NCBI RefSeq assembly: GCF_057098645.1
Contig: NZ_CM169472.1
Direction: 5' to 3' (one strand)
DNA: 64,000 nt
Below, piece by piece: positions 3,101 to 44,266 of the stretch. A program made the position numbers and the translations under genes. Within the stretch, counting starts at the first letter, position 1. Each line of letters begins with the position of its first letter. The notes under the pieces are model-generated. The model saw only the letters and a program-made list of their open reading frames with translations, ran no database searches and was not told the origin of the DNA.

Positions 3101-6100
3101 CTCGACGTGCGTTAGACGTCACGTTGCTGGGATACTCTCCGTATTTGCCGGGTAGCAAAGAAATTGCACCTGAAAAAGCAGTGTTGATTGAAATGCCTGA
3201 GCTTCCTGTACGTCACTGGCGTTTGTCTGGTGGTGGAGAAATCGCCCGAGAAGAACGTCTGGAGTGGCTGGAAAGTAATGCGCTGATTCAACATGCCCGC
3301 GAGGAAGGATTATGGTCTACTCGCAGCGACCGACTGGCCCTGAAAGATAGCTGGTATCGTCTGGAGGAACACTCTGCGCAGAGAACGCCTGAGCAGAACC
3401 AGTTTAATGAAAAACAATTTAAGTCAGGCAAAGTTAATGTGCTGAACTGTTCCACGACCATGGAGATGGGGGTGGATATTGGTGGTATGAGTTTGGTGGC
3501 AATGAACAACGTTCCTCCAGCGCCGGCAAATTATTTGCAACGTGCAGGTCGCGCGGGGCGTCGTGGAGAGAGTGCATCTGCTGCCATTACGTTATGTAAA
3601 AACACGGCGCATGGAATGGAGGTATTCAAAGACCCCCTCTGGGCGTTCAACACTACTGCCAGTGCGCCACGGGTTCGTTTTGGGAGCAGTAGCATTGTTC
3701 AACGACATGTTAATGCCCAGGTTTTAGGTCTGTTTTTACGAGCTGAAGTTCCTGATGCGACAAAACTGAGTTGCAAATGGTTCTTTGAAGGTGATGAGAG
3801 CCAGTGTCTTCGTTTTCTTCATTGGTTAAATCACCAGGCCGATGAGCTGGCGGATAAACTTAAACGCCTTACTCAGGGAACCGTCCTGATGTCATTGACG
3901 GCAACCCAGCTCTTGACCCGCACACAAGCAATGATGCAGCAGGTTGATATCCGCTGGAGAAGCCAACTTGCGATACTGTTGGAAAATATCGAAGCGTTGA
4001 AGGCGGATAACAGCGCGTGGGAAGAAACGCCAGCAGGTAAAGCCATCGCTTATCAGCTTCGTGATTATCGCGGTGCATATCTGTTTTCTAAACTCATTAG
4101 TGAAGCGTTCCTGCCGGGGCATGGTTTCCCGGTTGGCGTAGTCAATTTCAATTATCTGACGGCAGATGAGCTGGAAAAACGTCGCGCAATAAAAGCCACT
4201 CAGGCTGACCCTAATGAAGGGGGAGAAAGCTTTTCTCGTCGTATTGAAAAATTGCCCAGCCGTGATTTGCCTACAGCATTACGCGAGTATGCGCCTGGTG
4301 CAGATGTGGTATTGGGCGGAAAAGTATATCGTTCCTCGGGCATTATGCTTGGCAAGGTGCTTGCCAGCGGGCAGGAGCTGTCAGGCGATCATCATATTCC
4401 GTGGTTCTGGCATTGCCGTAAATGTGGTGCGGGGGCAACCAGTACTACCCATCCTGTCGAATGTAGTCACTGCAAAGCGGATATACAGCAACTTGATGTG
4501 AAGCGTTATTTACAGCCTGTTGGTTTTGCGACAGATATTCGTTATCAGGCACATAATGATGTATCCATGCCTGCACAACTTCCCTGGAAAGATCCACGTG
4601 TTCTTGTACCGTCTTCGGTGTGGGTTTCTTTACCCGATGCTGGGCTAGGACGTTACCGTTTTAGCCATAGTGGGGAATTGTTCCACTTCAGTGAAGGGGA
4701 ATTTGGGCACGGCTACGCAATTTGCCTCTCATGTGGTCGGGCAGAATCTCAAACTCAACCCCAGCGTACCCCTGAAAATCTAAAGAACCCAGAGCGGGAA
4801 AATACGCATTACCTGTTGCGAGGGGGCAGTAACGATCGTCAGGGGAGCAATAAATTGTGCCACGGTCATGTGCATAAAGATCTGTGGTTGGGGTATAGCA
4901 GTCGTACAGATATGGTTGAGCTGCAACTTAATGATGATAATGGCCTGTTGATCCGTGATGAGGTTGCCGCGCGTTCCCTTGCGGTCGCTTTGCGTGAAGG
5001 GTTAGCGCATAAATTGGGTATCGAAAATACTGAGCTGGGCGTGACGACGCAGCAAGCGCGCGATATCAATGGCTATACCGGATATTCCATCTTCATATAC
5101 GACAATAATGCGGGTGGTGCAGGTTATGCAGTGCAATTGATCGACCATTGGGCTGATGTCTTTAATTACGCCAGAAAATTGCTCGATTGCAGTTGCGATA
5201 AATTTTGTCACCACTGCTTGCTCAGCTACGACAGTCAGCATTATGTCAACAGATTAGATCGTCACCATGCATTAACCCTGCTTACCAATGTACGGTTGCA
5301 GCGACTTAACCTCGCGCCAGAATATCAGTACTTCGGCGATGGTAGCCGGGTTGAAACTAACCCTCTGAGTTTACGTATTGCGCAATGCCTGAACAGCGAG
5401 ATTTATGACTCCTGCTCGCTGGTTCTTGCGGGGCCGCAGGAACAGTGGGACTTTGCCCAATGGCCATTATTTAAAGAGTTGCTCCAGTTTGCCTCCTCCG
5501 GTGGGAATGTTGAGTTGCTGGTGGCCACGCCGCTGGAAAACTTAACTGATAGCTCCAGACATCAGCTTTCCGCGTTGGCGGCGATGCCGGGAGGACGCTT
5601 ACAAGTGAAATCCATTGCCACTGCGCAACTCATGCAAGGAAAGGGGCGCTGGCTTGCGCAGGTGACTCGCGAAGGGCAAAGCCAACAGTGGGCCGCAGAC
5701 GACAGCGCTACCGTTGCCCCTGGTGAATTATGGGGACAAAGTGCGTCTTCACCAGTAGTGACACTTAAAGGAACGTCCGGAAAAACCTTCTCGGGTCAGA
5801 CCTTAAGTGCAGAAGATTTACTGCCCGCCTTACCCACCGGGGCGGTGCGCATCAATCTCTGTGAACAACTGGACGGGCCGCTGGAAGGTTTTGGTTCGCG
5901 TTTCTGGTCGTTAGTCACGCAACAGCACGCTGGCTGGAAGCAGGCATTTACCCGCCACAAAGAGATAACGCATGTTGAGTACAGCGATCGTTATCTTAAT
6001 AGCCCATTCACGGCGCGTTTGTTAGGTGAAATCTTAACCGAGCTGGTTGAACAGGGAATGGCGGAACGCGCCAGCCTCACTGTTTGCGTCAAAAAATTGG

Positions 6101-30545: not shown

Positions 30546-31022
30546 AGATAGTTGAGATACCAGGGATGGTGTTAAAAACTACATTATTCTTACGATATAT
30601 CAAAAATGATTAACCATTTATTAATTGATGTTATTGTAAGTATAATTCTTAATTATCATAATAAACATTAAGTTAACCATATCCATACAAAATACAATGG
30701 TTTATGTTCTTCAAAATAAATAAACAAAATCATTCATAAATTTACACATCACTTAAATTCTCCTGTTTTCGCACTTTTTTCTTTATTTTTTAAGCAACTG
30801 GAAGTTAATCCACTGCAATCTATTGTTATATTGAATCAAATCAATGAAAATAGATGTTGTCACATCAGTGATATTTTATTTTTGTATGATATTTAATGTA
30901 ATTGACTGATAGCCACATCACTTCGTGTGTGGTTATCTTTTTATCTATTGGGCTAATTTTGACCGATTGAGGTTTCCTATAGGTATTCATTCAAATATAT
31001 CTCAGTTAGGAGTACTACTATT

Positions 31023-38836: not shown

Positions 38837-38870
38837 CAGAGCCTGCCATTGGCAGGCTCTGGTGTTCTTT
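38837..38870 (+). terminator. Rho-independent terminator-like hairpin in the convergent fimH/gntP gap
   Basis: 11-bp perfect stem cagagcctgcc / ggcaggctctg with 3-nt loop, followed by gtgttctttt. Confidence 0.6.
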
Positions 38871-40213
38871 TACGCTACCATGCTAATAATCAGCACAATA
38901 ATTAGCCCAACCACGGAGTTGACCAGCTCCAGCAGACCCCAGGTTTTCAACGTGTCTTTTACTGACAGGTCAAAGTAACCTTTGAACAACCAGAAAGATG
39001 CATCGTTAATGTGGGTGAGGGTGTTGGAACCCGCAGCCGTCGCCAGCACCAGCAGCGCCGGATTCACGCCAACCAGCTGACCGGTTGCTGGATCAAGGAT
39101 TGCAGCACTGATAATCCCGGCGGCGGTCATCGCCGAAACGACACCCTGACCCGTCGCCAGACGAATTAGCACAGTGATCAGCCATGCCATAATGTAGGGC
39201 GAGATATTGCCGTGGGACATCAACATGCCGATGGTGTCGCCAATGCCGGTGTCGATGATAGTTTGCTTCAGCACGCCACCCGCACCGATGATCAGAATCA
39301 CCATTGCAATGCTTTTCACCGCACTTTCAAAAGCGTTCATCACCCACTGCATGTCATGACCACGTGCGGTGCCAAAGAGTACGAATGCAACCACCATCGC
39401 AATAAACATTGCAATCGGCGAGGAACCGATAAAGTTAACCACTTCCCAGGCAGGGGTATCTTTTACCAGCCAGATATTGGCGATGGTGGTAGAGATCATA
39501 ATGATCGCCGGGATCAGCGGCACCAGAATCGAAACGCCGAAAGAGGGCAGATTGTTCATATCTACCGGTTGATCTGCTTTCAGGAATGATGGCGTTGGGC
39601 GCTCAAGATTGCCGAGGAACTTCGGCAGGATCAGACCTGCGCAGATTACACTTGGGATCGTCACCAGTACGCCATAGATATAAACCATCCCCATATCTGC
39701 GCCATAAGCATTCACCAGCGCCACAGGACCCGGCTGCGGTGGGAACAGTGAATGTGCGGTAGTGGCAGCTGCTACTGCCGGGATCGCCAGTTTCAGGAAC
39801 GGAATTTTAGCTTCGGCGGCAATGACAATAACCAGCGGCGCTAACATGATAAAGGCCACTTCATAGAACATCGCCAGACCAAAAATCAGGCCGATGATAA
39901 TCACCGACAGCTGTACATAGCGCAGACCGAGACGCGCCAGCAGCGTATGCGCTATCTGGTGAGCCGCGCCGGAGTCGACCATCAATTTACCGATGACCGC
40001 ACCGAACACCACGATGATAGCCAGTTCCCCCAGCGTGTTGCCGAAGCCCGCTTTCATGGTGTGCAGCAGCGACATCAAATCCATGCCCGCCAGCATCCCG
40101 ACGGACAGCGCCGCCACCAACAAAGCCACCATTGAATTGATTTTGAACTTCAAATTCAGTACCAGCATCAGACCAATGCCGAATACCACCCAGAGAATGT
40201 TAAGCACATGCAT
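38870..40213 (-). CDS. gntP: Gluconate/fructuronate permease GntP
   Basis: 447-aa polytopic membrane protein; sequence matches my recollection of E. coli GntP; divergent from uxuA. Confidence 0.9.
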
Positions 40214-40267
40214 AACGTTTTACCTTACCTGGTTGAACCGTTGTTATTTTGGGCGACATGTTATGTA

Positions 40268-40284
40268 AATTGGTCAACCATTGT
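40268..40284. promoter_or_regulatory. UxuR/ExuR-type operator-like palindrome in the gntP-uxuA divergent promoter region
   Basis: aaattggtcaaccattg contains the TGGT..ACCA core typical of FadR-subfamily GntR regulators; a near-identical motif sits upstream of uxuR. Confidence 0.45.
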
Positions 40285-40552
40285 TGCGATGAATGTCACA
40301 TCCTCTGATCAATAACCATCGATTACCCTTTGCTGCAATTTGCAGCAACAACCAGGAGAGTGAAATTCTTGTGATGTGGTTAACCAATTTCAGAATTCGG
40401 GTTGACATGTCTTACCAAAAGGTAGAACTTATACGCCATCTCATCCGATGCAACGCCACGGCTGCGGTCTGGTTGTTCATCCGGATACCTAAACAACTCC
40501 AGGGTTCCGCGTCTCTTTGCTGTGGAACCCACTATGTGAAAGAGGAAAAATC

Positions 40553-41737
40553 ATGGAACAGACCTGGCGCTGGTACGGCCCAAACGATCCGGTTTCTTTA
40601 GCTGATGTCCGTCAGGCGGGCGCAACTGGCGTGGTTACCGCGCTGCACCATATCCCGAACGGCGAAGTATGGTCCGTAGAAGAGATCCTCAAACGCAAGG
40701 CGATTGTTGAAGACGCAGGCCTGGTGTGGTCTGTCGTAGAAAGCGTACCAATTCACGAAGATATCAAAACCCACACTGGCAACTATGAGCAGTGGATCGC
40801 TAACTATCAGCAGACTCTGCGCAACCTGGCGCAGTGCGGCATTCGCACCGTGTGCTACAACTTCATGCCGGTGCTCGACTGGACTCGTACTGACCTCGAA
40901 TACGTGCTGCCAGACGGCTCCAAAGCTCTGCGCTTCGACCAGATCGAATTCGCAGCATTCGAAATGCATATCCTGAAACGTCCAGGCGCGGAAGCGGATT
41001 ACACCGAAGAAGAAATTGCTCAGGCAGCTGAACGCTTCGCCACTATGAGCGACGAAGACAAAGCGCGTCTGACGCGTAACATCATTGCCGGTCTGCCGGG
41101 CGCGGAAGAAGGGTATACCCTCGACCAGTTCCGTAAGCACCTGGAGCAGTACAAAGATATCGATAAAGCGAAGCTGCGCGAAAACTTTGCCGTCTTCCTG
41201 AAAGCGATTATTCCAGTTGCTGAAGAAGTTGGCGTGCGTATGGCGGTTCACCCGGACGATCCGCCGCGCCCGATCCTCGGCCTGCCGCGCATTGTTTCCA
41301 CCATTGAAGATATGCAGTGGATGGTTGATACCGTAAACAGCATGGCGAACGGTTTCACCATGTGCACCGGTTCCTACGGCGTGCGTGCTGACAACGATCT
41401 GGTTGATATGATCAAGCAGTTCGGTCCGCGTATTTACTTCACCCATCTGCGCTCCACCATGCGTGAAGATAACCCGAAAACCTTCCACGAAGCGGCGCAC
41501 CTGAACGGTGACGTTGATATGTACGAAGTGGTGAAAGCGATTGTTGAAGAAGAACACCGTCGTAAAGCGGAAGGCAAAGAAGACCTGATCCCGATGCGTC
41601 CGGACCACGGTCATCAGATGCTGGACGACCTGAAGAAGAAAACCAACCCAGGTTACTCCGCAATTGGTCGTCTGAAAGGCCTGGCCGAAGTTCGCGGTGT
41701 CGAATTGGCGATCCAGCGCGCTTTCTTTAGCCGTTAA
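40553..41737 (+). CDS. uxuA: Mannonate dehydratase UxuA
   Basis: [40 protein letters not shown]..., 394 aa; AAAGAGGAAAAA RBS. Confidence 0.9.
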
Positions 41738-41817
41738 TATCCACCGGCATGGCTGCGCGCCGTGCCGGTTCCTTCTTCCTTGCCGTCACCCTCTGAAGAC
41801 GGATTCTGGAGTTTACG

Positions 41818-43278
41818 ATGACTACTATTGTTGACAGCAATCTGCCGGTTGCCCGCCCGTCATGGGATCATTCTCGTCTGGAATCACGCATTGTGCATCT
41901 CGGTTGCGGGGCGTTTCACCGCGCGCACCAGGCGCTGTATACCCATCATCTGCTGGAAAGCACCGACAGCGACTGGGGCATCTGCGAAGTTAACCTGATG
42001 CCAGGCAACGACCGCGTGCTGATCGAAAACCTGAAAAAACAGCAACTGCTGTACACCGTAGCGGAAAAAGGCGCAGAAAGCACCGAGCTGAAAATTATCG
42101 GTTCGATGAAAGAAGCGCTGCATCCGGAAATCGACGGCTGCGAAGGTATTCTCAACGCGATGGCGCGTCCGCAAACGGCGATTGTCTCTCTAACGGTCAC
42201 GGAAAAAGGCTACTGCGCTGATGCGGCAAGCGGTCAACTGGATCTCAATAACCCGCTGATCAAGCACGATCTGGAAAACCCGACTGCGCCGAAGTCCGCG
42301 ATTGGTTACATCGTCGAAGCCTTGCGTCTGCGTCGTGAAAAAGGGCTGAAAGCATTTACGGTGATGTCCTGCGATAACGTGCGTGAAAACGGTCATGTGG
42401 CGAAGGTCGCGGTACTGGGGCTGGCTCAGGCGCGTGACCCGCAGCTGGCGGCATGGATTGAAGAGAACGTCACCTTCCCATGCACCATGGTTGACCGCAT
42501 CGTTCCGGCGGCGACGCCAGAAACCTTACAGGAAATTGCTGACCAGCTGGGTGTTTACGACCCGTGCGCCATTGCCTGCGAACCGTTCCGTCAGTGGGTG
42601 ATTGAAGATAACTTCGTTAATGGTCGCCCGGACTGGGATAAAGTGGGCGCACAGTTCGTTGCAGACGTTGTGCCGTTCGAAATGATGAAGCTGCGTATGC
42701 TGAACGGCAGCCACTCTTTCCTGGCGTACCTCGGTTACCTCGGCGGCTATGAAACCATTGCCGACACCATGACTAACCCGGATTATCGCAAAGCGGCCTT
42801 CGCCCTGATGATGCAGGAACAAGCGCCAACGCTGTCGATGCCGGAAGGTACGGACCTGAACGCCTATGCGACGCTGCTGATCGAGCGTTTCAGCAACCCG
42901 TCTCTGCGTCACCGTACCTGGCAGATTGCAATGGACGGCAGCCAGAAGTTACCGCAGCGTCTGCTGGACCCGGTGCGTCTGCACCTGCAAAACGGCGGCA
43001 GCTGGCGTCACCTGGCGCTGGGCGTGGCTGGCTGGATGCGTTACACCCAGGGCGTGGATGAGCAGGGTAATGCCATTGACGTGGTCGACCCGATGCTGGC
43101 CGAGTTCCAGAAGATTAACGCGCAGTATCAGGGCGCAGACCGCGTGAAAGCGCTGCTGGGCCTGAGCGGTATTTTTGCCGATGATCTGCCGCAAAATGCC
43201 GACTTTGTTGGCGCGGTGACGACGGCATATCAGCAGCTGTGCGAACGCGGTGCGCGCGAGTGTGTGGCTGCGCTGTAA
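41818..43278 (+). CDS. uxuB: D-mannonate oxidoreductase UxuB
   Basis: 486 aa, GCGAFHRAH Rossmann-like motif, operon position after uxuA. Confidence 0.9.
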   Translation: MTTIVDSNLPVARPSWDHSRLESRIVHLGCGAFHRAHQALYTHHLLESTDSDWGICEVNLMPGNDRVLIENLKKQQLLYTVAEKGAESTELKIIGSMKEALHPEIDGCEGILNAMARPQTAIVSLTVTEKGYCADAASGQLDLNNPLIKHDLENPTAPKSAIGYIVEALRLRREKGLKAFTVMSCDNVRENGHVAKVAVLGLAQARDPQLAAWIEENVTFPCTMVDRIVPAATPETLQEIADQLGVYDPCAIACEPFRQWVIEDNFVNGRPDWDKVGAQFVADVVPFEMMKLRMLNGSHSFLAYLGYLGGYETIADTMTNPDYRKAAFALMMQEQAPTLSMPEGTDLNAYATLLIERFSNPSLRHRTWQIAMDGSQKLPQRLLDPVRLHLQNGGSWRHLALGVAGWMRYTQGVDEQGNAIDVVDPMLAEFQKINAQYQGADRVKALLGLSGIFADDLPQNADFVGAVTTAYQQLCERGARECVAAL

Positions 43279-43302
43279 CTAACTGATTACCCTACAGACT
43301 TA

Positions 43303-43347
43303 CTGGTCAATCAAACTGATATTTGGTTGACCAGTTTTCGTTTTTTT
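43303..43347 (+). terminator. Rho-independent terminator after uxuB, overlapping a UxuR-box-like motif
   Basis: Stem ctggtcaa / ttgaccag followed by ttttcgttttttt; the 3' arm atttggttgaccagttt (43321-43337) is the reverse-complement match of the uxuA operator-like site. Confidence 0.55.
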
Positions 43348-43404
43348 GCCCACCTGTACGTGCCAACTTCCAGTGCTAATGGTATAGTTTGAGATTAACG
43401 GGGG

Positions 43405-43460
43405 CCGTAAAATTGCCCGTTGTAGGCCGGATAAGGCGTTCACGCCGCATCCGGCAAAAA
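43405..43460. repeat. REP element between uxuB and uxuR
   Basis: cccgttgtaggccggataaggcgttcacgccgcatccggcaaaaa, canonical REP palindromic unit. Confidence 0.7.
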
Positions 43461-43492
43461 TTTGATTAACCGCACCTAACGGACACAACACC

Positions 43493-44266
43493 ATGAAATC
43501 TGCCACCTCTGCGCAAAGACCTTACCAGGAAGTCGGGGCGATGATCCGCGATCTGATCATAAAGACGCCGTACAATCCTGGCGAACGGCTGCCGCCGGAG
43601 CGTGAAATTGCAGAAATGCTTGATGTCACGCGGACGGTGATACGTGAAGCGCTGATCATGCTGGAGATCAAAGGGCTGGTGGAAGTGCGCCGGGGTGCCG
43701 GTATCTATGTTCTTGATAGCTCAGGCAGCCACAACACAGACAGTCCGGATGCCAACGTCTGCAATGATGCGGGTCCTTTTGAGCTGTTACAGGCGCGTCA
43801 GTTACTGGAAAGTAACATCGCCGAGTTTGCCGCCCTGCAGGCTACCCGCGAAGATATCGTCAAAATGCGTCAGGCATTGCAACTGGAAGAGCGTGAACTG
43901 GCTTCCAGCGCGCCGGGTAGCAGCGAAAGCGGTGACATGCAGTTCCATCTCGCTATTGCCGAAGCAACGCATAACAGCATGCTGGTGGAGTTATTCCGTC
44001 AGTCCTGGCAGTGGCGGGAAAACAACCCAATGTGGATCCAGTTGCACAGCCATCTGGATGACAGCCTGTATCGCAAAGAGTGGTTGGGCGATCACAAACA
44101 GATCCTCGCCGCGTTAATCAAAAAAGATGCCCGAGCGGCGAAGCTGGCAATGTGGCAGCATCTGGAAAACGTTAAGCAACGTCTGCTGGAATTCTCGAAC
44201 GTTGACGATATTTATTTTGACGGCTATCTGTTTGATTCATGGCCGCTGGATAAAGTCGACGCCTGA
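43493..44266 (+). CDS. uxuR: GntR-family transcriptional repressor UxuR
   Basis: 257 aa; N-terminal HTH (ERLPPEREIAEMLDVTRTVIREAL), FadR-like C-terminal domain. Confidence 0.9.
   Translation: MKSATSAQRPYQEVGAMIRDLIIKTPYNPGERLPPEREIAEMLDVTRTVIREALIMLEIKGLVEVRRGAGIYVLDSSGSHNTDSPDANVCNDAGPFELLQARQLLESNIAEFAALQATREDIVKMRQALQLEERELASSAPGSSESGDMQFHLAIAEATHNSMLVELFRQSWQWRENNPMWIQLHSHLDDSLYRKEWLGDHKQILAALIKKDARAAKLAMWQHLENVKQRLLEFSNVDDIYFDGYLFDSWPLDKVDA

What the first reader, a model, noticed from the sequence alone, without database searches (positions are those of the whole stretch)
40268..43337. Matching UxuR-box-like palindromes upstream of uxuA and uxuR
aaattggtcaaccattg (40268-40284, gntP/uxuA divergent region) and the reverse complement of atttggttgaccagttt (43321-43337, upstream of uxuR) are nearly identical TGGTCAACCA-core palindromes. 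This suggests the same GntR-family repressor controls both uxuA/gntP and uxuR itself. The second copy overlaps the uxuB terminator stem, so it may serve both roles.
Basis: partly seen in the sequence, partly recalled or inferred. Interest (0 to 1): 0.3.

Follow-up and report, generated by a model that had tools for sequence, protein, structure and literature searches.

The report
Known UxuR operators around uxu genes
The two matching palindromes are real binding-site motifs for the already well-studied E. coli hexuronate repressor UxuR (with a third, missed, copy in front of uxuA), so this is textbook regulation; the only mildly unusual point is that the copy in front of uxuR is also one arm of the uxuB terminator hairpin.

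Summary
The window is the E. coli fimH-gntP-uxuA-uxuB-uxuR-yjiC region.

There are three exact TGGTNNACCA boxes in 64 kb, not two, and all lie in the two uxu intergenic regions:
- Box 1, 40271-40280, is gntP-proximal.
- Box 3, 43324-43333, lies in the uxuB-uxuR spacer.

A weight matrix built only from non-Escherichia orthologous sites ranks them 1-3 in the window (19.7-23.1 bits; next best 14.1). Only 0.7% of simulated windows reach 19.7 even once.

Box 3 forms the 3' arm of a conserved uxuB terminator hairpin, which shows compensatory changes across genera. It also behaves as an independent element. It occurs in 24 of 28 loci where uxuR follows uxuB and in 1 of 52 where it does not. One clade keeps it outside an unrelated hairpin. 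It keeps a fixed distance from the uxuR -10.

Published work already places gntP, uxuAB and uxuR in the UxuR/ExuR regulon and describes autorepression. Verdict: real, correctly interpreted, already known, low interest. How a box at about -66.5 represses uxuR remains unsettled.

The parts
38870..40213 (-). gntP (fructuronate transporter gene), divergent from uxuA
   Evidence: ORF list; RefSeq annotation of identical DNA
40258..40263 (-). Predicted gntP -10 hexamer (TAACAT on the minus strand). It implies a start site near 40251.
   Evidence: Invariant block ATGTTA in a 10-species alignment of the spacer. The prediction is an inference and has not been mapped experimentally.
40266..40285 (.). 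Box 1: UxuR/ExuR operator (core TGGTCAACCA 40271-40280). Its centre is about -24.5 from the predicted gntP start, that is, inside the gntP core promoter.
   Evidence: Weight-matrix score 22.8, rank 2 in the window. Conserved in Escherichia, Citrobacter, K. spallanzanii and L020.
40285..40300 (.). CRP-like site TGCGATGAATGTCACA, abutting box 1. Its centre, 40292.5, is about -41.5 from the predicted gntP start (a class II position).
   Evidence: The only 9/10 match to TGTGA-N6-TCACA in the whole window. Conserved in all 10 aligned species.
40370..40385 (.). CRP-like site TGTGATGTGGTTAACC, overlapping box 2
   Evidence: 8/10 consensus match, one of 14 in the window. The TGTGAT block is conserved next to box 2 from Escherichia to Pantoea.
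40372..40391 (.). Box 2: UxuR/ExuR operator (perfect palindrome TGGTTAACCA 40377-40386), 16 bp upstream of the conserved TTGACA.
   Evidence: Weight-matrix score 23.1, rank 1. It is the most widely conserved box, present with the same TGTGAT...TGGTTAACCA...GGTTGACA arrangement in Citrobacter, Klebsiella, Enterobacter, S. arizonae, Pantoea and Atlantibacter.
40402..40407 (+). TTGACA, the likely -35 element of the uxuAB promoter
   Evidence: GGTTGACATG is invariant in the 10-species alignment. The -10 element and start site were not resolved here.
40553..41737 (+). uxuA (mannonate dehydratase)
41818..43278 (+). uxuB (fructuronate reductase / mannonate oxidoreductase)
43302..43347 (+). uxuB intrinsic terminator: 5' arm 43302-43315, loop 43316-43321, 3' arm 43322-43335, T-tract 43336-43347
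   Evidence: Terminator scan. Fold of -19.7 kcal/mol, z = -4.4. 98.6% of cells paired across 20 sequences from 3 genera, with two compensatory pairs.
43304..43313 (.). Pseudo-box TGGTCAATCA in the 5' arm. It is the hairpin complement of box 3 and probably not an operator.
   Evidence: Weight-matrix score 7.7. It degrades to GGGTCAATCA / GGGTCAACTG in Citrobacter and Klebsiella.
43319..43338 (.). Box 3: UxuR/ExuR operator (core TGGTTGACCA 43324-43333) inside the 3' arm of the terminator. Its centre is about -66.5 from the predicted uxuR start.
   Evidence: Weight-matrix score 19.7, rank 3. Present in 24/28 loci with uxuR next to uxuB versus 1/52 without. Core invariant while the 5' arm varies. 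Retained outside an unrelated hairpin in L020/L023/L024.
43360..43388 (+). uxuR promoter GTGCCA-17-(TGg)TATAGT, with an extended -10
   Evidence: Promoter scan. The same hexamers are listed as a constitutive RpoD promoter between uxuB and uxuR in PMC3946193. TGnTATAGT is conserved in nearly all genera.
43415..43470 (.). REP-type repeat inside the predicted uxuR 5' leader
   Evidence: Sub-threshold Rfam naRNA4 (REP-derived) match at 43425-43470. The 5.6-kb query hit about 36 places per E. coli genome. This part of the spacer varies in length among Escherichia.
43493..44266 (+). uxuR, a GntR/FadR-family (GntR + FCD) repressor
   Evidence: Pfam PF00392 at 5e-23 and PF07729 at 2e-22; annotation

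Best explanation
The finding is part of the operator set of the E. coli hexuronate repressor UxuR and its paralogue ExuR. There are three 18-20-bp interrupted palindromes with a TGGT-NN-ACCA core.

Box 1 lies in the predicted gntP core promoter, at about -24.5, next to a class II-positioned CRP-like site. It would block RNA polymerase and possibly CRP.

Box 2 lies just upstream of the uxuA -35 element and almost coincides with a second CRP-like site. It would repress uxuAB mainly by competing with the activator and with upstream polymerase contacts.

Box 3 lies in the uxuB-uxuR spacer and gives uxuR autoregulation. Fructuronate or glucuronate releases the repressor from all three boxes.

Box 3 is also, when transcribed, the 3' arm of the uxuB intrinsic terminator. 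One stretch of sequence therefore carries two functions: an RNA hairpin arm and a DNA operator.

Shown here: the motif matches, their conservation, the hairpin, and the signs that the box is constrained independently. Taken from the literature: regulon membership, autorepression and in vitro binding in this region. Inferred: the promoter-relative positions and how repression is exerted at uxuR, where the box sits upstream of the core promoter.
For: - The locus is gntP-uxuA-uxuB-uxuR of E. coli, and UxuR is a GntR + FCD protein.
- The only three TGGTNNACCA matches in 64 kb lie in the two uxu spacers.
- A matrix trained on non-Escherichia sites ranks them 1-3. Scores at positions not used to select the training sites fall in the 98.6th to 99.85th percentile. 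Only 0.7% of simulated windows reach the weakest box's score.
- The boxes are conserved in orthologous positions across Escherichia, Citrobacter, Klebsiella, Enterobacter, Cedecea, Pantoea and others. They are absent from most uxuAB loci without a nearby uxuR, such as Xenorhabdus and the second Citrobacter copy.
- Box 3 occurs in 24/28 loci where uxuR is the next gene and in 1/52 where it is not (Fisher 3e-15, not corrected for phylogeny).
- In the hairpin alignment the box core varies at only 1 of its 10 positions, while the complementary 5' arm varies at 4 and is rescued by wobble pairs.
- In L020/L023/L024 the box lies 3' of an unrelated hairpin.
- The distance from box centre to the -10 is 53.5-55.5 bp in three clades and exactly 34.5 bp in Citrobacter.
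- Terminator evidence.
- Literature: operator consensus (PMC8092373); regulon membership and autorepression (PMC9369180; PMC10016265); SELEX target gntP/uxuABR with two sites (PMC5934670); RpoD promoter GTGCCA-17-TATAGT (PMC3946193).
Against: - No binding or expression experiment could be run. The primary papers that define these operators (Rodionov 2000, Bates Utz 2004, Suvorova 2011, Tutukina 2016, Ritzenthaler 1982/83) were not available, so I could not confirm that the published uxuR operator is exactly 43319-43338.
- The SELEX text speaks of a single site in the gntP-uxuA spacer, while its figure legend speaks of two sites in the operon. Direct evidence for box 3 is therefore ambiguous.
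- Box 3 is the weakest of the three boxes. It lies about 26 bp upstream of the -35 element (about -66.5), which is not a classical position for repression. By contrast, the paralogous exuR promoter has its box overlapping the -10.
- In Citrobacter and K. oxytoca the last core base is C (ACCC), a change that keeps the hairpin but weakens the box.
- Atlantibacter, Shimwellia and L068 have an adjacent uxuR but no box.
- All start sites used here are predicted, not mapped.
Confidence: 0.8

Rival explanations
1. Box 3 is only the 3' arm of the uxuB terminator. Its resemblance to the UxuR box is incidental, and uxuR autoregulation, if any, runs through other sequences.
For: The hairpin is clearly under selection. 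At the one position where box and hairpin conflict, Citrobacter and Klebsiella kept the pair and broke the box (ACCA to ACCC). The box is far from the core promoter. Four lineages with an adjacent uxuR lack it.
Against: A hairpin arm has no need to be a palindrome that matches the local regulator's operator at 19.7 bits, a score reached in 0.7% of simulated windows. The box tracks uxuR adjacency (24/28 versus 1/52). It persists outside a different hairpin in L020/L023/L024. The 3' arm is far less variable than the 5' arm. No other box exists in the spacer to explain the reported autorepression.
Confidence: 0.07
2. Box 3 works mainly as a roadblock or termination modulator for transcription coming from uxuAB, rather than as a repressor of the uxuR promoter. 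On this view bound UxuR stops polymerase before the hairpin is completed. When the inducer removes UxuR, some polymerases read through the terminator into uxuR, tying uxuR dosage to uxuAB transcription.
For: The operator is embedded in the terminator and sits upstream of, not on, the uxuR core promoter. Shimada et al. write the target as uxuABR / uxuABuxuR. uxuR is reported to be under cAMP/glucose control. Yet the uxuB-uxuR spacer has no CRP-like site of 8/10 or better, whereas the uxuA promoter has one.
Against: There are no data on read-through. An RNA-polymerase-alone promoter exists between uxuB and uxuR. The fixed box-to--10 distance across clades argues for an interaction with that promoter rather than with incoming polymerase. 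This model is not exclusive of the main explanation.
Confidence: 0.2
3. The boxes act together through DNA looping. On this view UxuR dimers on phase-matched operators about 105 bp apart (box 1 and box 2), and possibly box 3 some 2.9 kb away, form a repression loop. The upstream position of boxes 2 and 3 would then be explained by cooperative binding rather than by local occlusion.
For: Neighbouring boxes are 104-106 bp apart (ten helical turns) in 26 of 49 adjacent pairs. This holds in two different architectures: box 1-box 2 in Escherichia and Citrobacter, and box 2 plus a downstream box in Pantoea, the Erwinia-like loci and the Enterobacter/Cedecea loci. The spacing holds although the intervening DNA of Escherichia and Citrobacter is not alignable.
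Against: The spacing is not universal; it is 159, 186-187, 208 and 219 bp in other loci. The counts are not phylogenetically independent. No partner site lies 105 bp from box 3. The sources I could read describe UxuR only as a homodimer or as a UxuR-ExuR heterodimer. The spacing could also simply reflect the fixed layout of two divergent CRP-dependent promoters.
Confidence: 0.15

Closest known systems
UxuR/ExuR regulon operators of E. coli and other Gammaproteobacteria (Rodionov 2000 and Suvorova 2011 comparative genomics; RegulonDB and RegPrecise entries). These sources are recalled from my own knowledge; the held papers cite them.
   Same: Same organism and same genes (gntP, uxuAB, uxuR). 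Same motif (AAATTGGTATACCAATTT-type, TGGT-NN-ACCA core). Same regulator family (GntR/FadR). Same logic: repression relieved by fructuronate or glucuronate, plus autorepression.
   Different: Nothing of substance; this is the same system. I could not check whether the databases list exactly these coordinates, or whether the overlap of the uxuR-side box with the uxuB terminator arm has been pointed out.
The autoregulatory box of the paralogue exuR (exuT-exuR spacer, K-12; L082 5606-5627)
   Same: A regulator gene follows a structural or transport gene. It has a GntR-type box in the short spacer and the same TATAGT -10 hexamer.
   Different: At exuR the box (AAAGTGGTATAACAAATA) overlaps the -10, which is classical occlusion, and the exuT terminator is a separate GC-rich hairpin upstream. 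At uxuR the box is about 54 bp upstream of the -10 and is itself part of the terminator.
ulaG-ulaR / UlaR autoregulatory site (Shimada et al. 2018, PMC5934670)
   Same: A single-target regulator has one site in the divergent promoter region. A second site sits between the last upstream gene and its own gene and is interpreted as autogenous control.
   Different: The regulator belongs to a different family (DeoR). No terminator overlap is described.
Intrinsic (Rho-independent) terminators
   Same: A stem-loop followed by a U-tract, 23 nt after the uxuB stop codon and conserved with compensatory changes.
   Different: The stem is unusually A/U- and G.U-rich (5 G-C pairs of 14). Its 3' arm is frozen in sequence, consistent with the second (operator) constraint.

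Membership tests
UxuR/ExuR (GntR/FadR-family) operator | 18-20-bp interrupted palindrome matching the UxuR consensus (AAATTGGTATACCAATTT; core TGGT-NN-ACCA) | tested here: met
   The cores match exactly. The sites match 13-14 of 18 consensus positions. Weight-matrix scores are 23.1, 22.8 and 19.7, ranks 1-3 of the window. The chance level is 0.7% of simulated windows for a single hit of 19.7 or more.
UxuR/ExuR (GntR/FadR-family) operator | Located in the regulatory regions of hexuronate-utilisation genes, with the cognate regulator gene present | tested here: met
   All three boxes lie in the gntP-uxuA and uxuB-uxuR spacers. uxuR encodes a GntR + FCD protein.
UxuR/ExuR (GntR/FadR-family) operator | Conservation of the site at orthologous positions in related genomes (phylogenetic footprint) | tested here: met
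   Boxes 1 and 2 are conserved while the surrounding spacer diverges. Box 2 is conserved out to Pantoea. Box 3 is conserved in Escherichia, Citrobacter, the K. oxytoca group and L020/L023/L024, and tracks uxuR adjacency.
UxuR/ExuR (GntR/FadR-family) operator | Physical binding by UxuR/ExuR and an effector-sensitive effect on transcription | not testable with these tools
   Literature only. SELEX with purified UxuR gives a peak at gntP/uxuABR with two sites that is weakened by glucuronate (PMC5934670). Genes of the regulon are derepressed in a uxuR deletion (PMC10016265). Both regulators are reported to be autorepressors (PMC9369180). None of the held texts gives site-level data for box 3.
UxuR/ExuR (GntR/FadR-family) operator | Position compatible with repression (overlapping the core promoter or an activator site) | tested here: inconclusive
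   With predicted start sites, box 1 is at about -24.5 of gntP (core promoter), box 2 overlaps a CRP-like site upstream of the uxuA -35, and box 3 is at about -66.5 of uxuR (-46.5 in Citrobacter), overlapping neither the core promoter nor a recognisable activator site.
Rho-independent terminator (uxuB) | Stable stem-loop immediately followed by a U-tract, just downstream of a stop codon | tested here: met
   A 14-pair stem with a 6-nt loop, followed by UUUCGUUUUUUU, starts 23 nt after the uxuB stop codon. Free energy is -19.7 kcal/mol (z = -4.4), and 0 of 200 shuffles fold as well.
Rho-independent terminator (uxuB) | Structure conserved with compensatory substitutions | tested here: met
   98.6% of cells are paired in 20 sequences, against 18-50% when the partner is slid. 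Two pairs change on both sides (U:A to G:C, A:U to C:G). There are only two covarying pairs, so support is moderate.
Rho-independent terminator (uxuB) | Transcript 3' ends at the U-tract in vivo or in vitro | not testable with these tools
   No 3'-end mapping data were available.
CRP (cAMP receptor protein) binding sites next to boxes 1 and 2 | Match to TGTGA-N6-TCACA at a class I or class II distance from a promoter | tested here: inconclusive
   The 9/10 match at 40285-40300 is the best in the window, and there is an 8/10 match at 40370-40385. Both are conserved. Promoter distances rest on predicted start sites, and binding was not tested.

The most novel reading that the evidence does not exclude
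Box 3 may be a truly bifunctional element whose two roles are mechanistically coupled. As DNA it would be a UxuR operator held at a fixed helical phase (about -66.5, or -46.5 in Citrobacter, exactly two turns closer) upstream of the extended -10 uxuR promoter. As RNA it is the terminator arm of uxuB. Repressor occupancy would then decide both promoter activity and read-through from uxuAB into uxuR. The recurrent 104-106-bp spacing of UxuR boxes would additionally reflect repression loops, which the texts I could read do not describe for this regulator.
Probability: 0.2. Interest if true: 0.45.

Novelty: already known. Interest (0 to 1): 0.15.

Why it matters
It matters little beyond confirmation. 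The UxuR/ExuR regulon, including gntP, uxuAB and autoregulated uxuR, has been studied since the 1980s and is catalogued in regulatory databases.

The residual value lies in three details:
- One sequence is constrained both as an operator and as a terminator arm, a small, clean example of overlapping DNA-level and RNA-level codes.
- The uxuR operator sits well upstream of its core promoter, so how autorepression works at this promoter is not self-evident.
- Operator spacing of about 105 bp recurs across genera, which hints at cooperative binding.

Each of these is testable with simple reporter and footprinting experiments.

Tried and rejected
- **Primary operator papers.** I tried to read Suvorova 2011 (PMC3147527), Bates Utz 2004 (PMC524916), Tutukina 2016 (DOI), Ritzenthaler 1982 (PMC216320) and Mata-Gilsinger 1983 (PMC1202228). 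None is held.
- **Full-text search for the site sequences.** It returned only unrelated primers.
- **RefSeq K-12 annotation.** It carries no regulatory features for this region.
- **Plain consensus-match counting.** This discriminated poorly: 13-14 of 18 for the boxes, but 5 other 13/18 hits in AT-rich DNA. I replaced it with a weight matrix from orthologous sites.
- **The pseudo-box TGGTCAATCA in the 5' arm as a fourth operator.** Rejected: 7.7 bits and not conserved as a box.
- **TGGTATAGTT over the uxuR -10 as a half-site, by analogy with exuR.** Rejected: the GGT is not conserved outside Escherichia.
- **A CRP site in the uxuB-uxuR spacer.** None reaches 8/10.
- **A second promoter overlapping box 3.** I found no credible -10/-35 pair by eye or by scan.
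- **The terminator T-tract as an UP element for uxuR.** It aligns with the distal UP subsite in E. coli but not in Citrobacter, where the 20-bp shorter spacing moves it over the -35. I kept this only as speculation.
- **Rfam.** No known RNA family matches the hairpin.
- **The weight-matrix hit at 30602-30621.** At 14.1 bits it is at chance level.
Full report
**What the window is.** The region 38.8-44.4 kb is 100% identical to E. coli chromosomes annotated gntP, uxuA, uxuB and uxuR, and the K-12 record shows the same order. The genes in window coordinates are gntP 38870-40213 (minus strand), uxuA 40553-41737, uxuB 41818-43278 and uxuR 43493-44266. UxuR carries a GntR winged-helix domain and an FCD domain, so it is a FadR-type GntR-family regulator.

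**Checking the observation.**
- Both strings exist. The second is exactly at 43321-43337. The first is at 40267-40283, one base left of the stated coordinates.
- Reverse-complemented, the two 17-mers agree at 13 of 17 positions and share the same 10-bp core.
- TGGTNNACCA occurs only three times in 64 kb, against 0.9 expected. All three are in the two uxu spacers.
The third, a perfect palindrome TGGTTAACCA at 40377-40386, is the one closest to uxuA.
- The second reported copy does lie in the 3' arm of a terminator-like hairpin (43302-43335, followed by a T-tract). The hairpin is found by the scan and folds at -19.7 kcal/mol, better than all 200 shuffles.

**Is it more than chance?**
- I fetched 80 loci encoding UxuB relatives from one genome per species and mapped gntP, uxuA, uxuB and uxuR in them.
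- From the uxuA upstream regions of non-Escherichia loci I collected 41 distinct 20-mers with the exact core and built a symmetrised weight matrix.
- In the window it ranks 40372-40391 (23.1 bits), 40266-40285 (22.8) and 43319-43338 (19.7) first to third, with a gap to 14.1.
- Scored only on the positions not used to pick the training sites, the three are in the 98.6th to 99.85th percentile.
- In 300 simulated windows with the same dinucleotide statistics, 0.7% had any hit of 19.7 or more. Hits near 14 were common, so the fourth hit (30602, in the fimB-fimE spacer) is at chance level.

**Anatomy of the gntP-uxuA spacer.** A 10-species alignment shows sharp footprints in otherwise unalignable DNA.
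- On the gntP side there is an invariant ATGTTA, which reads TAACAT on the gntP strand and is a plausible -10. Next come box 1 and then TGCGATGAATGTCACA. That last sequence is the single best CRP-consensus match in the whole window, at 9/10.
- With that -10, the CRP-like site is centred at -41.5 and box 1 at -24.5. This is a class II CRP promoter with the repressor site in the core promoter.
- On the uxuA side the block TGTGAT-TGGTTAACCA-N16-GGTTGACATG is conserved from Escherichia to Pantoea, Enterobacter, Salmonella arizonae and Atlantibacter.
- Box 2 therefore overlaps a second CRP-like site (8/10) just upstream of a TTGACA -35.
- These positions are inferences from sequence; I had no mapped start sites.

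**Anatomy of the uxuB-uxuR spacer.**
- The hairpin starts 23 nt after the uxuB stop codon.
- Downstream lies GTGCCA-17-TATAGT, preceded by TG. These are the same hexamers that Shimada et al. list as a promoter bound by RpoD holoenzyme alone between uxuB and uxuR (PMC3946193).
- TGnTATAGT is conserved in almost every genus examined.
- A REP-type repeat sits in the predicted leader.
- Box 3 is centred 54.5 bp upstream of the -10, at about -66.5.

**Does box 3 serve one role or two?** The terminator is real as far as sequence can show.
- Across 20 sequences from Escherichia, Citrobacter and the Klebsiella oxytoca group, 98.6% of stem positions pair, against 18-50% when partners are slid.
- Two pairs show compensatory changes.

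The box also behaves as an element in its own right.
- Its core is invariant except for the last base, while the complementary 5' arm varies at four positions and is rescued by wobble pairs.
- A box of at least 8 bits lies downstream of uxuB in 24 of 28 loci where uxuR is the next gene, and in 1 of 52 where it is not. These counts are not phylogenetically independent.
- In L020, L023 and L024 the uxuB terminator is an unrelated GC-rich hairpin, and the box follows it rather than being part of it.
- The box-to--10 distance is 53.5-55.5 bp in Escherichia, the K. oxytoca group and the L020 group, despite very different intervening sequence. It is exactly 34.5 bp in ten Citrobacter loci, two helical turns less.

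Against a strong operator role:
- The single position where the two codes conflict was resolved in favour of the hairpin in Citrobacter and Klebsiella (ACCA to ACCC, with U:A to G:C).
- Four lineages with an adjacent uxuR have no box.

**Mechanism.**
- For gntP, classical occlusion is the obvious reading.
- For uxuA, competition with CRP and upstream polymerase contacts is the most likely mechanism.
- For uxuR the mechanism is not obvious, because the box is upstream of the -35. The paralogous exuR promoter, by contrast, has its box over the same TATAGT -10 and a separate terminator.
- I consider repression of the uxuR promoter from an upstream, phase-fixed position the most likely mechanism. 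A roadblock or read-through mechanism is a serious, non-exclusive alternative.
- That alternative fits three observations: the operator's position inside the terminator, the way SELEX authors write the target as uxuABR, and the reported cAMP control of uxuR despite there being no CRP-like site in its own spacer.

**What is known.**
- The held literature states that UxuR and ExuR jointly control uxuA, uxuB, gntP and others, and that both are autorepressors (PMC9369180; PMC10016265).
- Genomic SELEX with purified UxuR finds its only target at gntP/uxuABR, with two sites, and the signal is weakened by glucuronate (PMC5934670).
- A biosensor paper uses AAATTGGTATACCAATTT as the UxuR site attributed to the uxuR promoter (PMC8092373).
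- A UxuR profile from RegPrecise is in routine use (PMC4888284).
- The papers that define the individual sites were not available to me. From my own knowledge, they include gntP, uxuA and uxuR sites.
- I therefore file the finding as already known.

**Scores.** The finding is real but ordinary, with interest 0.15. The most novel reading not excluded is a mechanistically coupled operator/terminator plus phase-locked operator pairs that imply looping. I give it a probability of about 0.2 and moderate interest if true.

Noticed in passing
window 40266-40391; loci L007-L013, L022, L025, L035-L041, L048: Neighbouring UxuR boxes are 104-106 bp apart (ten helical turns) in 26 of 49 adjacent pairs. 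This holds in two different layouts: box 1-box 2 in Escherichia and Citrobacter, and box 2 plus a box in the uxuA leader in Pantoea, the Erwinia-like loci and the Enterobacter/Cedecea loci. The spacing holds although the DNA between the boxes is unalignable between genera. It may indicate cooperative binding or looping, or merely a fixed layout of divergent promoters.
   Followed up: partly
window 40285-40300 and 40370-40385: Two CRP-consensus matches (9/10, the best in the window, and 8/10), each touching a UxuR box. Both are conserved across genera. The first is at about -41.5 from the predicted gntP start.
   Followed up: partly
window 40229-40238: TGGTTGAACC, a box-like sequence with a 3-bp rather than 2-bp centre, is nearly invariant across 10 species. 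It lies in the predicted gntP leader, 16-25 nt upstream of the start codon. Its function is unknown; it could be a translation-initiation region constraint or a variant operator.
   Followed up: no
window 40471-40480: TGGTTGTTCA in the uxuA leader aligns with a full box (TGGTTGACCA) in Klebsiella spallanzanii. It looks like a decayed third uxuA operator in E. coli.
   Followed up: no
window 43415-43470; L002-L006: A REP-type repeat (sub-threshold Rfam naRNA4 match) lies inside the predicted uxuR leader. Other Escherichia species carry about 55 extra bases here, so the leader varies from about 98 to 153 nt while the box, terminator and promoter stay fixed.
   Followed up: partly
L082 5553-5627 (K-12 exuT-exuR spacer): The paralogue exuR has a separate GC-rich exuT terminator. 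Its box, AAAGTGGTATAACAAATA, overlaps a TATAGT -10 identical to that of uxuR. The exu-type boxes seen in K-12 have an ACA rather than ACCA right half.
   Followed up: partly
L020, L023, L024 at about 5530-5565: Between the box and the -10 these loci carry a 9-bp inverted repeat (TTGTCGGCA...TGCCGACAA) that Escherichia lacks. It is possibly another protein site or a second hairpin.
   Followed up: no
L028-L031 (second uxuAB copy in Citrobacter): Several Citrobacter genomes have a second uxuA-uxuB pair followed by a convergent GntR-like gene only 33-35% identical to UxuR. No UxuR boxes lie upstream. It is presumably a separately regulated paralogous operon.
   Followed up: no
L060 5640-5659 (Vibrio sinensis): This is the only locus without an adjacent uxuR that has a good box (14.8 bits, TGGTCAACCA) within 250 bp downstream of uxuB. 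The gene it precedes was not identified.
   Followed up: no
window 30602-30621 (fimB-fimE spacer): This is the fourth-best weight-matrix hit (AAAAATGATTAACCATTTAT, 14.1 bits), in AT-rich DNA. 20% of simulated windows reach this score, so it is probably chance.
   Followed up: yes
window 41743-41769 (uxuA-uxuB spacer): An 11-pair, GC-rich hairpin (ACCGGCATGGC...GCCGTGCCGGT) lies between uxuA and uxuB without a proper T-tract. It may be an intercistronic stabiliser or processing structure.
   Followed up: no
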